A stretch of DNA of 64,000 nucleotides from the human T2T-CHM13v2.0 reference genome, Homo sapiens (GCF_009914755.1 NC_060944.1), one strand, 5' to 3'; numbered from the stretch's first letter, positions 39,994 through 60,674 are shown. Made by a program: numbers and translations. Notes: generated by a model not told the origin, from the sequence alone.

Positions 39994-40703
39994 CTAGAGG
40001 TCTTGGCTGGGCTCTAGGGGAGCCTCGAGCTGCCCCACGGAGACCAGGGTGCTGAGCTGTCCCGAGGCACCGCTTTCCGGTGGGAAGGTGACCAAGTCTG
40101 AGTTCTTGTTCTCACTCTGATCACTGTGCTGCTTCTTGTGGCATCTCAGAGAGTCATCCCTGACGAAGGAGGCGCCGCAGGTCTCACAGCGGAAGGCCCT
40201 CTGCGTCACGATCTTGGCCACGTGCTGGGAGCTGCCCTCTCTGAGCCCTTCCTTGCCCAGAGGGGCCCGGTTCTCCGTCTTGGCCTCGTCCCTGTGCACC
40301 TTGTCGACGTGCTTGGCCAGGCTGCTGGGCCGCTTCGTGTCGAAGCTGCAGAAGTCACACTTGAAGGGACGGTCCTTACAGTGGACTCTGCTGTGCACGC
40401 GCAGGGCGGCCGCGCTGGAGCAGGAGTAGCTGCACTCTGGACACTTCTCCGGGTGGTCGGCCTGGTGCAGCCGGCTGTGCTCCAGGAGGTCAGCCCGGTC
40501 CCGGCCCTGGAAGGCACAGTGCAGACATTTGAAGGTGTGCTTGATGCGGATGTGCGATTTGAGATTCGCCTTCATGGTGCAGCGGACGTCGCAGAACTCG
40601 CACTTGAAAGGCTTCTCCCCCGAGTGCACGATCATGTGCCTTTTCAAGTCCGAGCTGATTTTGAACTTGGCGCTACAGAGCCAGCACTGGAAGGGGGTAT
40701 CCC
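39994..40703 (-). CDS. ZFP64: Terminal coding exon: six C2H2 fingers plus a short tail ending EPSQDL*
   Basis: ctag| acceptor at 40704-40705, frame GDTPFQCWLC..., TAG at 39996-39994; within ORF 39994..40764. Confidence 0.95.
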
Positions 40704-40829
40704 CTAGCAATGGAAGGTGTGTTTCCATTAGAACAGGCAGGCAAAACAGACCCTCCCACCCCAACCTGCCTTAGCACACTTGGCCGCCATGAGATGGTTG
40801 GGTTTTGTGAACTCTAAACCCAACCTCCT

Positions 40830-41005
40830 AATGACAACACTTGTTGTGCATATTAATGCAATCCTCACAACAATCCTATGAGTGGGTACTATTACCCCCA
40901 CTTTACAGATGGGACAACTGAGGCTCAGAGAGGTCAAGTTACTTGGCTCAGGTCAAACAGCAGGGATTTGGAACCCAGGCACTATGGCACTCAAGTCCAT
41001 ACTCT
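40830..41005 (-). mobile_element. MIR
   Basis: aatcctcacaacaatcctatgag...ttacagatgggacaactgaggctcagagaggtcaagttacttg. Confidence 0.8.
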
Positions 41006-41914
41006 TGATGACCCCTTCAGTTTCAAATCTAAACTCCCATTTAACTTGACATCCCAGAATTGAATGTGGAAGAAGAGGTGAGATTTAAATTACAAACAAC
41101 TGCTTCAAATCAAGCTAAGACCTGTGAAGACGCTTACTATAGTGTTTAATCTATATGACATCAGTTATTGAGCTTGTATTTCAAGTTAAAGTTTCTTACT
41201 TTTATAACTACAGGCTAAATTTTATTTATAATATTAATGCATAATTATGGCAGCAGGGGACAAATAATAAAGAGCCATGGTCTTTAGAGTCCCATTCCCT
41301 GGAGACATTGCTAAGGGTTTCTAGTTGTTTTTGAGGTTGCTGCTTTAAACGTCAGTTGAATATACACAAAGATAAGCATCTTATCCTACACACCCATCCT
41401 TTCCCTAACCTCTCCCCTGCATTCTGGTGGTTGTGACTTTTACACTTTTAAGCTGAGTAGTAGCCTCACATTTTAGTCCATCAGCTTCTGAGATTTTTTG
41501 AGGATTCACTCCTCTTCTCCACACTTAACTTCTCACTTGTTAGAAGTAGCTTTCTTTTCACCTTTAAGTAAAAAAATATTTCCATTCTGTCTGGTGAATT
41601 CTTATACTTTAATCATTTTCAGATTTCAAGTTCAGAAGCCAACTATAAATAATTTAAATGGTGACTGGGAATGTGATATTCATCGGAGCCAAACACTGCA
41701 CCAGGATTACAATCACTTCCTTATAAGTCTGCTGTCACACTCAGGCCAGTGGATGGCGTAACCACCCATCAATATAATTTTGTTTTCTTTTCTTACGTGT
41801 TGCTCATTTGGGGGCACATTTTAACTTGCTTCTTGATTAGACTGTGTTTCTTGAAAAAAGGAATCTCAATTTCAGAAGTCATCCACTCTCATAATTTTGT
41901 AACTTTCACAAGGA

Positions 41915-42212
41915 ATTTTTTTTTTTTTTTGATACAGAGTCTCACTCTGTCGCCCAGGCTGGAGTGCAGTGACGCAATCTCAGCTCACTGCAAGCTCCGC
42001 CTCCCAGGTTCATGCCATTCTCCTGCCTCAGCCTCCCGAGTAGCTGGGACTACAGGTGCCCGCCACCACGCCCAGCTAATTTTTTTGTATTTTTAGTAGA
42101 GACGGGGTTTCACCGTGTTAGCCAGGATGGTTTCGATCTCCTGACCTCGTGATCTGCCTGCCTCAGCCTCCCAAAGTGCTGGGATTACAGGCTTGAGCCA
42201 CCGCGCCCGGCC
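41915..42212 (-). mobile_element. Alu (AluY-like)
   Basis: TSD ctttcacaaggaattttt. Confidence 0.95.
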
Positions 42213-57855: not shown

Positions 57856-58089
57856 CTCTTGCTCTGTGAGCAAGAAACTGGCTCAGATGCTCAAGGTTGC
57901 AGGACTGGAAGTTTTCAGCTCATTGGAACCCACACTTGCCAGATCTGCAACCCATCCTATGTCCCTCAGGGACAGACACAAACAAAGCCTCATTACATAG
58001 CAACTCACATACTAGAAGAGAAAACCATTAAACTCTTGAGGGTTTTAATTCCACAGAAGTCAAGCAAGACTGAAAACAAATCTAAGTGA

Positions 58090-58280
58090 GGCACTGTATA
58101 ACACAGTGGTTTGGGGAACAGACTGGGAAACCAGCTGATAAGTTTCAATTCCAGTTTTACCATTAGCTGTGTCCCACTGGATAAGCTACTCAACTTCCCC
58201 GTTCCTCAGTTTCCACATCTGTGAAATGGGTATTATGGCCGTCTCATTAGCTTAGATGAAGTTCTTTAGTATATGTAAGA
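58090..58280 (+). mobile_element. MIR
   Basis: cctcagtttccacatctgtgaaatggg. Confidence 0.65.
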
Positions 58281-60568
58281 GAACCTCATGTATTAGTCAA
58301 TACTGTATAAATGCTATTAGTGTTATTCACTGATATACACACGTAAGATTCTACCAGATTCTCAGGGGGAGAAAGATGCATGTTTTCAACGCAAACTAGA
58401 AAAGTGAGAGAGAGGTGGGTTAAAGGATGACCCAGATAGAGCCTCTGATGGGGAGGTGTGAGGGGCCTCCGATTTCTTTTACGTTTAGACACCCAGGAAA
58501 CCAAAGAAGGCCTGAAGCCCACTCTCCTGGGAAAGGTGCAGCTGGGGGAGACCCTCTGCCTCTGGAAGTGGGGGTGGGCCGCATTTGACTATTAGAAACC
58601 AGGTTAGCATGGCGAGGGTTTTAACTCCTGGGGAAACGGATGATGTTCCCTCAGTAAGGTTCCTCCAGCCCCTTCGTCATTTTACTGGTGGTGACAGGAA
58701 GTCCACTAATTACTTTCCATTTTATTTTCCTCCAAAAGCTACTTGAGTTGCAAAGACACTTGCAAATTAAGAGTGGCCCAACCTTCGTAAAAAATGTACC
58801 CCCTTGCCAGTGTCGCAGACCAAAGGTACTAGGATAAAACGTCAGTTGGAAGACGGTTTTTTCTCCGAAGTGGTGGCTGGGGTTGAGGCACACTACTGGG
58901 CCGGCAGAGTTTGCGTCCTGCTCCCACAGAAGTCACCTCAGTACTCCAGGACGCACGACACCCTCCCCATGCCCGAAACACTGGGTGCGGCTCCAGAAGG
59001 CGCCTCGCAGCGCTGGCTGCAGGAATCCAAAGTAGCTCAGTGCACAGACTTTCAACTCCAGCCTGGGGTTACTCAGCAATTCTCTTCTATAAACACCTCC
59101 CCCAAAAGACTCAGCATCCCCAGTACCTCCCCAACTTCCCCGAGGCGCAGAGATCAGCAAGAGCCCCGCCCCTCGACCCAGGGGACGGGATCCTGTAAGT
59201 CTCACCTGCCTATCTCCATCCCAGGCCTCGGGCACGAGGGTGGTTGTACTATCCTGGTTATGGTAGCTCCACTCGAGCAAGCTTTATTTTAACATATAAG
59301 CTATTCGTTTAGTGGAGGCTTCATTAAACTACTCCCCTCCACCACCACCTCGGGAAGTTGTGGTCAAAACCCACCAGACCGACTGTGGTGGAAGTTGATG
59401 CGGAAGCTGGAGAGCCCGCGGCTCTGGAGGGGTGAGCCGCCCCGGAGAGGGGACCCATCCTCCTTTCCGCGCCCGGAAAGAGCGGGGGAGAAGAGGAAGT
59501 CCAGTTACAACTCCTTTCCTCAGCCCCTTAAAGGAAAGGTATCAGCTAACCACGGGGAGCTGGCAGCCTAAGAGAAAGTAGGAACCTACAATCTCTTAAT
59601 CTAAGCACAAGATAAGCAAAAAGGGAAGCGCCTTAGAAATGCAGATTCCCCAACCCCACCCCTGAGATTCCAGTGGAGGCGGGGGATGGGGGGATCCCTA
59701 ACTTGCAGGAAGAATTTGGCGAGCGAGAAAAGGTCCCCTCCCGCAGGCTCTTCTGAAGCGGAGGATCCCGGGACGAGAAATGCTGCCCGGGGGGCTTAAG
59801 GTAGCCGACGATCTCCTTGCTACATCCTGTGTCCACGTGGCAGCCGAGGAGGGGGTGTGGGGGCCGCCTGTTAAGTGCGACAGCATCACTGCTCTATCCC
59901 CACCACGGCTCCCACTTCGCTCAGATAAAATGCAGAGCTCTTACCAAGGCTCACGGCCGTCCCCCGCCCCCCACCGTCTGCCCCCATCACCTCTCGGGCC
60001 TCCGGTGACCTCTCGGGCTACAGCAGCGCTGACGCCCTGGGTCCCTGCGCTTCTGTTCCCTCGGCCTGGAATGCTCTTCCCCCGGGTACCTGCACAGCTC
60101 GCTCCCTCCCATCCTTCGGGTCTTCGCTCGAACGTCCGCTCCTCGGTGAGGCCTTCCCTGGACAACGCATTTGAAACGTAACCCCAAGGCAAGAAGCCAC
60201 CTTCCAGGCGCGCAGCCGAAGCCCAGTGCCAAGGAGGCCGGAGACTCGGGTGCCCGCGCATCCCGAAAACAGCCTCTGAGGGGTCCTCTGAGCATCCTTC
60301 CAGCGTGTTTGGGAGGCAAACTCGTTGACTAGCTCTTGAGAGGAGTGGCTAGAGGAATCCAGGCGGGGAAGGGGACGGTGGACTCCAGGAGAGTGTAATT
60401 TACAAAGGCGGGGGGCGGGGACGCCCAGGTCCGAGTCCCAGGACTCTGCGCCGGACGCTTCGCCCGCCCTTTCAGGTCCCCTGCCCGGTCCTCGTACCCG
60501 CGCGGGTCCGGAGAACCTCTGAGCACCGGCCCCCAGCCCCCGGGCGGGGCTCCAGCGGCGCTACTCAC

Positions 60569-60674
60569 CCGGCTCCCCCGCCACCTGCGGGGCCACCTCC
60601 GCACACTCCCGGCGCGCAGGCCGCGGCTCCTCGGAGTTGAGGTGCTGGGGCTTGGCCTGCTTGCGCCGCGACAT
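60569..60674 (-). CDS. ZFP64: First coding exon of the internal-promoter ZFP64 (ZNF338-type) transcript; encodes MSRRKQAKPQHLNSEEPRPARRECAEVAPQVAGEP (SALL-type NuRD-interaction motif)
   Basis: Minus strand reads cgcgccATGTCGCGGCGCAAGCAGGCCAAGCCCCAGCAC...GAGCCGG|gtgagt. Good Kozak context, canonical donor, 106 nt (phase 1) in frame with exon 54022-53873; lies in a CpG island. Confidence 0.88.

What the first reader, a model, noticed from the sequence alone, without database searches (positions are those of the whole stretch)
39994..60674. Hidden SALL4-exon-1 / ZFP64-zinc-finger chimeric gene with its own promoter
Seen: a 106-nt exon in the CpG island, below the ORF-track cutoff, starts with Kozak ATG and encodes MSRRKQAKPQHLNSEE...AGEP. 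It ends on gtgagt in phase 1 and splices in frame through four exons into a 426-aa, 10-finger C2H2 protein. Known: N-terminal MSRRKQxxP is the RBBP4/NuRD-binding motif of SALL, FOG, BCL11 and ZNF423/521. From memory, SALL4 begins MSRRKQAKPQHINSEE, its exon 1 ends ...AGEL in phase 1, and it is the next protein-coding gene downstream on the same strand. Inference: a duplication-born chimera that puts ZFP64-type DNA binding under a SALL repression motif. I recall it annotated only as a ZFP64 isoform (alias ZNF338), so the transcript is not new; its chimeric origin and function are the under-described part.
Basis: partly seen in the sequence, partly recalled or inferred. Interest (0 to 1): 0.92.

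Follow-up and report, generated by a model that had tools for sequence, protein, structure and literature searches.

The report
SALL4-derived first exon inside ZFP64
An alternative promoter and first exon inside the human ZFP64 gene is an old copy of the start of the neighbouring SALL4 gene, so a ZFP64-type zinc-finger protein carries SALL4's repressor-recruiting tag; the transcript is annotated, but its origin seems not to be in print.

Summary
Window 60569-60725 (minus strand) is a first exon with its ATG at 60674. It has 106 coding bases, a phase-1 end and a GTGAGT donor. It splices through four canonical exons to a 426-aa protein that stops at 39996-39994.

The exon starts MSRRKQAKPQHL. 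About 470 bases here (60390-60858) are roughly 70% identical to the 5' end of SALL4, which lies 302 kb downstream on the same strand. The match covers the core promoter with its CCAAT box, the exon, the same donor and phase, and about 175 bases of intron. A second collinear block lies further upstream.

Exons 2-5 are collinear copies of ZFP64 coding exons 3-6. That tandem duplication is already published (PMC8373072).

Seventeen predicted orthologues from primates, an elephant, bats, lagomorphs and rodents keep the first 12 residues almost unchanged, while the rest of exon 1 varies. A tree places the finger duplication on the eutherian stem.

NuRD recruitment through RBBP4 is inferred. A complex model supports it (0.79 against 0.02 for the best control), but similar complexes are already solved.

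Verdict: a real, annotated isoform and a new member of a known kind. Interest is moderate.

The parts
61605..61703 (-). Upstream block collinear with the sequence about 73 bases upstream of the SALL4 promoter block
   Evidence: blastn gives 75% identity over 100 columns, E 6e-15 and 5e-13. The whole-genome search with this stretch returned only itself, so it is not a common repeat.
60870..61290 (.). Interspersed-repeat insertion, two inverted units, separating the two SALL4-like blocks
   Evidence: The genome search found 3223 first-look candidates. 40 were scored, giving 79 matches on many chromosomes, and the stretch also matches its own reverse strand.
60726..60858 (-). Core promoter copied from SALL4. 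It includes a CCAAT box at 60835-60839 and a nearly identical run of about 55 bases
   Evidence: 110 of 133 aligned bases (83%) are identical to the SALL4 promoter. The chr18 paralogue does not match here. The stretch lies in a CpG island.
60569..60725 (-). Alternative first exon of ZFP64: 5'UTR 60675-60725 and coding part 60569-60674 (35 codons plus 1 base)
   Evidence: and the hub's RefSeq table. It is homologous to SALL4 exon 1 with in-frame indels of 24 bases.
60639..60674 (-). Codons 1-12, MSRRKQAKPQHL: an N-terminal RRKQxxP motif of the NuRD/RBBP4-interaction type
   Evidence: 32 of 36 bases are identical to SALL4. Read from the alignment, three differences are synonymous and one changes Ile to Leu. 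11 of 12 columns are invariant in 18 sequences. Residues 3-6 and 8-14 form the modelled interface with an RBBP4 relative.
60390..60568 (-). Start of intron 1, copied from SALL4 intron 1
   Evidence: The GTGAGT donor is 6 of 6 identical. Beyond it, 99 of 163 aligned bases (61%) are identical, K2P 0.56.
53873..54022 (-). Exon 2, a paralogue of ZFP64 coding exon 3 (window co-ordinates 121306-121422, outside the window)
   Evidence: tblastn gives 41% over 39 aa, E 2e-5. blastn gives 65% over 168 columns.
52809..52871 (-). Exon 3, a paralogue of ZFP64 coding exon 4. It carries the second half of the atypical finger
   Evidence: 70% over 20 aa, 78% at the nucleotide level, finger spacing.
43830..44081 (-). 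Exon 4, three C2H2 fingers, a paralogue of ZFP64 coding exon 5
   Evidence: 84% over 83 aa, 87% at the nucleotide level, Pfam zf-C2H2.
39448..40703 (-). Exon 5, six C2H2 fingers, stop at 39996-39994, then the 3'UTR. It is a paralogue of the first part of ZFP64 coding exon 6 and lacks that exon's roughly 190-aa tail
   Evidence: 64% over 233 aa, E 4e-93. 63% over 236 aa. B-type proteins end where the aligned segment ends, while A-type proteins continue for about 190 aa. Pfam result.

Best explanation
This is a chimeric transcription unit nested in the annotated ZFP64 gene.

Shown here. A DNA-level duplication placed at least 0.67 kb of the SALL4 5' end upstream of a tandem copy ('block B') of ZFP64 coding exons 3-6. 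The copied piece comprises an upstream element, the CCAAT-box core promoter, exon 1 and the start of intron 1. SALL4 exon 1 ends in phase 1 and ZFP64 exon 3 begins in phase 1, so the join reads in frame. The unit has its own CpG-island promoter, start codon, stop codon and 3' exon, and it encodes 426 aa. Block B arose on the eutherian stem. The chimeric isoform is predicted in Afrotheria and Boreoeutheria, so it predates the radiation of placental mammals.

Inferred. The invariant N-terminal MSRRKQAKPQHL docks onto the acidic top face of RBBP4/RBBP7 and so brings the NuRD deacetylase/remodelling complex to the DNA sites read by the block-B fingers, making this isoform a repressor. It also lacks the roughly 190-aa C-terminal tail of isoform A. 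The literature places isoform A's activation function in the C-terminal region.

More speculative. Block-B fingers share most base-contacting residues with block-A fingers, so this isoform may oppose isoform A at shared sites. The inherited promoter may give it SALL4-like expression.

Open. One tandem duplication running from ZFP64 intron 2 to SALL4 intron 1 would produce exactly the observed order (block A, SALL4-like exon 1, block B, SALL4). I could not distinguish one event from two.
For: Structure. The frame is open, the splice sites are canonical and the product is 426 aa.

SALL4 origin.
- The whole-genome DNA search gave three matches: the query itself, SALL4 (73% identity over query 43-363 of 401, E 5e-44), and a chr18 paralogue over 57 bases only.
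- Local blastn extends the SALL4 match to 60390-60858 and adds 61605-61703. Both are collinear and are the only unique same-strand hits in 44 kb against 30 kb.
- Identity by compartment: promoter 83%, motif codons 89%, rest of exon 76% with in-frame indels, donor 6 of 6, intron 61%, 5'UTR 50%.
- Promoter and intron homology rules out an mRNA-mediated copy.
- The target locus is SALL4 (PMC5342750 passage).

ZFP64 origin of the fingers. The best non-self match in the genome is ZFP64's own last exon (64%, E 4e-93). Four exons are collinear. The duplication is published (PMC8373072 passage).

Conservation.
- 17 of the 120 listed homologues begin MSRRKQ[A/T]KPQHL. They come from gibbons, a lemur, an elephant, three bats, a rabbit, a pika and eight rodents.
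- 11 of 12 motif columns are invariant, while residues 13-35 vary.
- All 53 listed clusters with at least 80% identity to block B are eutherian.

Timing. Block B groups with eutherian block A (branch support 100/99). AU tests reject holding A with marsupial and sauropsid sequences (p 0.001) and A with marsupial sequences (p 0.004).

Function.
- RRKQxxP at the N terminus is the published NuRD-interaction motif, with R, K and P essential (PMC11602157 passages).
- SALL4 binds RBBP4 through basic residues and recruits NuRD (PMC10679446 passages). Every basic residue in the first 12 positions is the same in both proteins.
- The complex model with an RBBP4-like protein scored 0.79 in all three runs, against 0.02 for the best of 3 controls. 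That mark was reached by 51 of 78 solved complexes and 2 of 108 mismatched pairs. The runs agree in at least 37% of contacts and the partner's pLDDT is at least 49. The interface covers residues 3-6 and 8-14.
- 26 of 36 base-contacting finger positions are identical between blocks A and B.
Against: - I examined no expression, CAGE or junction data. The only support for use of the promoter is the RefSeq annotation in the hub's table and the predicted orthologues.
- Most orthologues are computed models ('isoform X...'), which may partly copy one another.
- NuRD binding is unmeasured. The complex model used a fish RBBP4-like stand-in and a 35-residue, mostly disordered partner. Peptides were not part of the tool's calibration. 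Similar complexes (SALL4, FOG-1 and BCL11A peptides on RBBP4) are already solved, so the pass may only reflect that likeness.
- ZFP64 is absent from the lists of motif-bearing proteins in PMC11602157 (passages), and I found no proteomic link.
- The timing rests on one marsupial species, a long block-B stem (0.73 changes per column) and groups named after the tree was seen. Early gene conversion between A and B would mimic a eutherian-stem duplication.
- The 5'UTR is only 50% identical to SALL4's.
- I did not see where in the tail isoform A's activation domain lies. The primary paper, PMC6554023, is not held.
Confidence: 0.72

Rival explanations
1. The duplication is real, but the isoform is a minor or tissue-restricted by-product, and the motif survives without bringing NuRD to DNA in cells.
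For: No expression data were seen here. Mouse isoforms 2 and 3 were 'hardly detectable' in Purkinje cells (PMC12178792 passage; which of them is the MSRRKQ form is not stated). ZFP64 does not appear in published motif lists (PMC11602157 passages). No paper links ZFP64 to RBBP4 or NuRD through this motif.
Against: Eleven of 12 motif columns are invariant across 18 sequences from distant placental orders, while the next 23 residues drift. Three of the four base differences from SALL4 in the motif codons are synonymous. The promoter is better conserved (83%) than the intron (61%) or the 5'UTR (50%). The frame stays open in 17 predicted orthologues.
Confidence: 0.13
2. The N-terminal basic stretch acts mainly through something other than NuRD, for example nuclear import or RBBP4/7 in another complex.
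For: The stretch is rich in Arg and Lys, and RBBP4/7 sit in several complexes (PMC10679446 passages). The complex model says nothing about which assembly is involved.
Against: Proteins that bind RBBP4 through this motif pulled down NuRD but not PRC2, and the pocket is blocked in PRC2 (PMC11602157 passage). Eleven of the 12 residues equal SALL4's NuRD-recruiting peptide (PMC5342750 and PMC10679446 passages).
Confidence: 0.08
3. The likeness to SALL4 exon 1 is convergent, or reflects only the motif shared by all SALL, FOG and BCL11 proteins, and is not a copy of SALL4.
For: The first 12 residues are identical to the chr18 paralogue (Leu at position 12), whereas SALL4 has Ile there.
Against: The DNA homology covers the non-coding promoter, the donor site and the intron, and it is specific to SALL4. 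The chr18 locus matches only about 57-177 bases around the coding motif.
Confidence: 0.02

Closest known systems
SALL4 (spalt-like 4), N-terminal 12-residue NuRD-recruiting peptide and its exon 1 and promoter
   Same: The first 12 residues are identical at 11 of 12 positions. Both have the same phase-1 exon end and GTGAGT donor and a homologous CCAAT-box promoter. They lie on the same chromosome strand 302 kb apart.
   Different: Everything after exon 1 differs. The fingers are ZFP64-type, not SALL-type. Exon 1 is 8 codons shorter. Position 12 is Leu, not Ile.
ZFP64 isoform A (681 aa) and the 645-aa isoforms
   Same: They are part of the same annotated gene. The 645-aa isoforms use exactly these exons 2-5. 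The fingers are paralogous, and 26 of 36 base-contacting positions are identical to block A.
   Different: This isoform has its own promoter and first exon. It lacks the shared ZFP64 N-terminal 255 residues, and it lacks the roughly 190-aa C-terminal tail of isoform A.
Other zinc-finger proteins with an N-terminal RRKQxxP motif (FOG-1, SALL1, BCL11A, ZNF296, ZNF827, as listed in PMC11602157)
   Same: A motif at the extreme N terminus followed by a C2H2 finger array. The expected partner is RBBP4/7 of NuRD.
   Different: Here the motif can be traced to a dated DNA duplication from a neighbouring gene, and it exists only as one alternative isoform. Binding has not been measured.
Tandem exon duplication-derived substitutions (PMC8373072)
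   Same: [quoted passage not shown]
   Different: The passage I saw describes only the C-terminal swap in transcripts from the main promoter. It does not mention the SALL4-derived promoter and first exon upstream of the copy.

Membership tests
N-terminal NuRD-interaction-motif (RRKQxxP) proteins | The sequence RRKQxxP is present | tested here: met
   Residues 3-9 are RRKQAKP. The motif definition is from PMC11602157 passages.
N-terminal NuRD-interaction-motif (RRKQxxP) proteins | The motif sits at the extreme N terminus of the protein | tested here: met
   It follows Met-Ser directly. There is no upstream ATG in the 51-base 5'UTR.
N-terminal NuRD-interaction-motif (RRKQxxP) proteins | Direct binding to RBBP4/RBBP7 | tested here: inconclusive
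   The complex model scored 0.79 against 0.02 for the best of 3 controls. That mark was reached by 51 of 78 solved complexes and 2 of 108 mismatched pairs. Contact agreement is at least 37% and partner pLDDT at least 49. Similar complexes are solved, so this shows likeness, not binding.
N-terminal NuRD-interaction-motif (RRKQxxP) proteins | Co-purifies with NuRD and represses transcription in a motif-dependent way | not testable with these tools
   This needs co-IP and reporter assays. No paper was found.
SALL (spalt-like) family | SALL-type finger clusters encoded by a large exon 2 | tested here: not met
   The fingers' nearest relative in the genome is ZFP64's own last exon at 64%. Other zinc-finger loci reach 43% or less over the full length. 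It is not a SALL family member; only exon 1 and the promoter are SALL4-derived.
ZFP64 gene (isoform of) | Shares exons with transcripts from the main ZFP64 promoter | tested here: met
   A 645-aa orthologue maps to the proximal exons and then to 54022 and 40703. The hub's RefSeq table lists these exons under ZFP64.
Chimeric gene made by DNA-level duplication (exon shuffling) | Two parent loci with paralogous segments, including non-coding flanks | tested here: met
   The SALL4 promoter, exon and intron are matched. ZFP64 exons 3-6 are matched with short flanks.
Chimeric gene made by DNA-level duplication (exon shuffling) | Compatible intron phases at the new junction | tested here: met
   SALL4 exon 1 and this exon 1 both end in phase 1. 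Exon 2 starts in phase 1.

The most novel reading that the evidence does not exclude
A single tandem duplication on the eutherian stem, with breakpoints in ZFP64 intron 2 and SALL4 intron 1, created a built-in antagonist of ZFP64. The product is a short isoform driven by a SALL4-type promoter. It reads much the same DNA as activator isoform A, lacks isoform A's C-terminal tail and carries SALL4's NuRD tag. In SALL4-expressing cells (early embryo, germ line, some cancers) it would therefore silence ZFP64 targets such as KMT2A/MLL.
Probability: 0.2. Interest if true: 0.7.

Novelty: new member of a known kind. Interest (0 to 1): 0.55.

Why it matters
ZFP64 is studied as an activator, for example as a dependency of MLL-rearranged leukaemia, and as a cancer gene. 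Papers usually treat it as one protein, and knock-downs, guides and antibodies often hit several isoforms. If one conserved isoform carries a NuRD-recruiting tag and lacks the activator tail, gene-level results may mix opposing activities.

It would also add a member to the short list of RBBP4-docking zinc-finger proteins. Those proteins are targets of peptide inhibitors designed against the SALL4-RBBP4 contact, and such peptides would be expected to affect this isoform too.

For evolution, it is a clean and datable case of a promoter plus first exon being copied from one gene onto the duplicated body of its neighbour.

Tried and rejected
- The primary ZFP64/MLL paper, PMC6554023, is not held, so the position of isoform A's activation domain comes second-hand from a PMC12178792 passage.
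- One paper reading failed because a term was too short, and I did not repeat it.
- The PDB sequence search with the 35-residue exon gave 0 hits. That library omits chains under 20 residues, so the solved peptide complexes cannot appear.
- The bacterial-type promoter and terminator scan of 60600-60900 found nothing and has no bearing on a human promoter.
- The apparent ZFP64/NuRD and ZFP64/SALL4 hits in PMC4595712 and PMC8900154 are Zfp640 and Zfp648, not Zfp64. PMC12155391 gave only review mentions.
- I searched for more non-coding paralogy to decide between one and two duplication events. 29566-29878 against 101723-102036 looked collinear but is a common repeat with 10596 candidates. 58061-58236 against 133658-133836 is weak, at 62% and E 7e-7. 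A hit at 77057-77640 to the SALL4 3' region is on the opposite strand.
The one-event model therefore stays untested.
- The rat and mouse imprinting of the 'Zfp64 CGI promoter' (PMC10012579) could not be tied to this CpG island. In human placenta the ZFP64 promoter is unmethylated and expression is biallelic (PMC11924184 passages).
- Supplementary files were not opened. Those of PMC8373072 and PMC12178792 (its Figure S1A and Table S1) may show the isoform structures.

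
Full report
**What is there**

The window is human chr20 (T2T) 53816001-53880000. On the minus strand, 60569-60725 is a first exon. Its ATG is at 60674 in the context gccATGt, and the 51-base 5'UTR has no upstream ATG. 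The exon has 106 coding bases and ends ...GAGCCGG|GTGAGT in phase 1.

Joining it to 53873-54022, 52809-52871, 43830-44081 and 39448-40703 gives an open frame of 426 aa with the stop at 39996-39994. All introns are GT...AG and every junction is in phase 1. These exons are the ones the hub's RefSeq table lists under 'other transcripts' of ZFP64, so the transcript is annotated and not hidden.

The exon lies in a CpG island: 60300-60900 has G+C 0.69 and CpG observed/expected 0.86.

The protein has nine canonical C2H2 fingers. A tenth crosses the exon 2/3 junction with the spacing C-x4-C-x13-H-x3-H. Pfam finds zf-C2H2 in exons 4 and 5 and nothing in exons 1 and 2.

**The first exon and its promoter are a copy of the SALL4 5' end**

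A search of the whole assembly with 60500-60900 returned three places:
- the query itself;
- chr20:53573707-53574049 on the same strand, 302 kb downstream (73% identity over query 43-363 of 401, E 5e-44);
- a 57-base match on chr18.

More sensitive local alignment extends the chr20 match to window 60390-60858 and adds a second collinear block at 61605-61703. In a comparison of 44 kb here with 30 kb there, these were the only two non-repeat hits in the same orientation.

A dispersed repeat at 60870-61290 separates the two blocks. It gave 3223 first-look candidates genome-wide.

The matching locus is SALL4. Its exon translates to MSRRKQAKPQHINSEE...AGEL, followed by G|GTGAGT. The first 12 residues equal the SALL4 peptide printed in PMC5342750 (passage). 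An 837-aa frame 10 kb downstream matches PDB chains named 'Sal-like protein 4' at E 7e-158.

| Compartment | Identical / aligned | Identity |
|---|---|---|
| Upstream of the annotated start (includes the CCAAT box at 60835-60839 and a nearly unchanged run of about 55 bases) | 110 / 133 | 83% |
| 5'UTR | 25 / 50 | 50% |
| Motif codons 1-12 | 32 / 36 | 89% |
| Rest of the exon (24 bases of in-frame indels) | 53 / 70 | 76% |
| Donor | 6 / 6 | 100% |
| Intron | 99 / 163 | 61% (K2P 0.56) |

Because promoter and intron were copied, the event was a DNA duplication and not a retrocopy.

The chr18 paralogue is presumably SALL3. That name is recalled from its position and was not tested. It matches only around the coding motif, so SALL4 specifically is the source.

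**The rest of the unit is a tandem copy of ZFP64 exons**

The last exon's best non-self match in the genome is ZFP64's own last coding exon, 68 kb upstream (64% over 233 aa, E 4e-93). Other zinc-finger loci are far weaker.

All four exons have collinear paralogues in proximal ZFP64:

| Exon here | Identity to paralogue | Paralogue (window co-ordinates) |
|---|---|---|
| 2 | 41% | 121306-121422 |
| 3 | 70% | 120137-120196 |
| 4 | 84% | 115565-115813 |
| 5 | 63% | 108169-108867 |

Mapping orthologues onto the locus shows two uses of block B. The 645-aa isoforms run from the main promoter through proximal exon 5 and then into block B. The 425/426-aa isoform starts at 60674. B-type proteins end where the finger segment ends, whereas A-type proteins continue for about 190 residues.

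**Conservation and age**

A protein search with the last exon, restricted to longer proteins, found 564 hits at E <= 1e-30, and the best 120 were listed. The 53 listed clusters with at least 80% identity are all placental mammals. Marsupial, bird and reptile ZFP64 proteins score 54-57%.

Seventeen of the 120 begin MSRRKQ. They come from two gibbons, a lemur, an elephant, three bats, a rabbit, a pika and eight rodents.

In an alignment with the human exon, 11 of the first 12 columns are invariant. Position 7 is Ala or Thr. Residues 13-35 vary freely. Three of the four base differences from SALL4 in these codons are synonymous, as read. This is the signature of selection on the 12-residue tag itself.

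A maximum-likelihood tree of the last-exon segment (33 rows) gives the following:
- Block B is one clade (support 100/100) on a long stem of 0.73 changes per column.
- B plus eutherian A are separated from marsupial, sauropsid and sturgeon sequences by a branch with support 100/99.

AU tests reject holding A with marsupials and sauropsids (p 0.001) and A with marsupials (p 0.004).

Several caveats apply to the timing. Only one marsupial species was included, and the groups were named after the tree was seen. The B stem is long, and early gene conversion cannot be excluded. Most orthologues are computed gene models.

On this evidence, both block B and the SALL4-derived exon predate the placental radiation, and block B postdates the split from marsupials.

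**How it probably works**

N-terminal RRKQxxP is the published NuRD-interaction motif, with R, K and P essential. It binds RBBP4 directly. Such proteins pull down NuRD and not PRC2 (PMC11602157, passages). SALL4 uses its basic residues on RBBP4's acidic face to recruit NuRD and repress genes (PMC10679446, passages). The ZFP64 exon keeps every basic residue of the SALL4 12-mer and differs only by Ile12 to Leu. The chr18 paralogue also has Leu at position 12.

I folded the 35-residue exon with an RBBP4-like protein (P0125, a fish cluster representative found). The results were as follows:
- The score was 0.79 in all three runs, against 0.02 for the best of three controls.
- That mark was reached by 51 of 78 solved complexes and 2 of 108 mismatched pairs.
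- The runs agree in at least 37% of contacts, and the partner's pLDDT is at least 49.
- The interface covers residues 3-6 and 8-14.

Because similar peptide complexes are solved, this shows likeness and not binding. Peptides were also outside the tool's calibration.

The isoform also lacks isoform A's C-terminal tail. [quoted passage not shown] I could not read the primary paper.

Twenty-six of 36 base-contacting positions (-1, 2, 3, 6) are identical between paired A and B fingers. Three consecutive fingers are identical at all four positions. Overlapping DNA targets are therefore plausible.

My reading is a NuRD-recruiting repressor form of ZFP64, possibly expressed in a SALL4-like pattern because it inherited the SALL4 core promoter. 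The origin is shown. The repressor function is inferred. Antagonism of isoform A and SALL4-like expression are speculative.

**One event or two**

A single tandem duplication from ZFP64 intron 2 to SALL4 intron 1 would give exactly the observed order: block A, SALL4-like promoter and exon 1, block B, SALL4. I looked for decayed non-coding paralogy to test this and found none that is convincing. I could not fetch the 242 kb between block B and SALL4. The question is open.

**Is it known?**

Three things are already known:
- The transcript is annotated.
- Human 'isoforms A to D' and three mouse isoforms are mentioned in PMC12178792 (passage).
- The finger-exon duplication is published (PMC8373072).

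I found no paper that mentions the SALL4-like exon or a NuRD motif in ZFP64:

| Search | Papers |
|---|---|
| ZFP64 + NuRD | 18, none on this topic in the 15 listed |
| ZFP64 + RBBP4 | 6 |
| ZFP64 + SALL4 + isoform | 8 |
| MSRRKQ + ZFP64 | 0 |
| ZNF338 / FOG repression motif / ZFP64 isoform | 8 |
| ZFP64 + alternative promoter | 14 |

For most of these I saw only listings, and passages for a few. Subscription papers and supplements were not searched.

A 2024 survey of motif-bearing proteins lists FOG-1, SALL1, SALL4, BCL11A, ZNF296 and ZNF827 but not ZFP64 (PMC11602157, passages).

**Verdict**

The function is well motivated but untested. This is a new member of a known kind: an N-terminal NuRD-motif zinc-finger protein made by exon and promoter shuffling between neighbouring genes.

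Noticed in passing
window 60870-61290: A palindromic interspersed repeat of two inverted units of about 120 bases sits directly upstream of the SALL4-like promoter. The genome search gave 3223 first-look candidates. It lies inside an annotated long exon (60090-61290) and a RefSeq 'enhancer' element (60110-61078). I did not determine its family name.
   Followed up: partly
G000 chr14:44910490-44911188 (L009-L011): A ZFP64 block-B-like copy with many in-frame stops (6 TGA, 1 TAG, 1 TAA over the full length; 73% identity over part). It is probably a pseudogene of the block-B last exon.
   Followed up: no
P0017: A UniRef cluster for a 645-aa Bos indicus ZFP64 isoform carries the name 'Spalt like transcription factor 4'. 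This suggests that automatic naming has confused the two neighbouring genes.
   Followed up: no
L006 (chr18:79214853 onward): The chr18 SALL paralogue begins MSRRKQAKPQHL, the same 12 residues as the ZFP64 exon, whereas human SALL4 has Ile at position 12. Leu may therefore be the older state in SALL4. Whether this locus is SALL3 was not tested.
   Followed up: partly
G000 chr5:14737579-14737788 (L025), chr6:57959519, chr6:62042293: Intronless RBBP4-like copies with long open frames of 329, 262 and 241 aa. They are probably retrocopies. The chr5 frame is 99% identical to a 329-aa protein cluster in the database (P0121).
   Followed up: no
window 32134-51917, + strand (hub's table): The predicted lncRNA LOC105372664 runs antisense across block-B exons 4 and 5. 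I did not examine it.
   Followed up: no
literature: PMC10012579, PMC11924184: Rat Zfp64 is paternally expressed in extra-embryonic tissue, with a 'CGI promoter' methylated in oocytes of rat and mouse. Human ZFP64 is biallelic in placenta, with a maternal DMR in intron 2. Which CpG island the rodent work refers to (the main one or the SALL4-like one) could not be told from the passages.
   Followed up: partly
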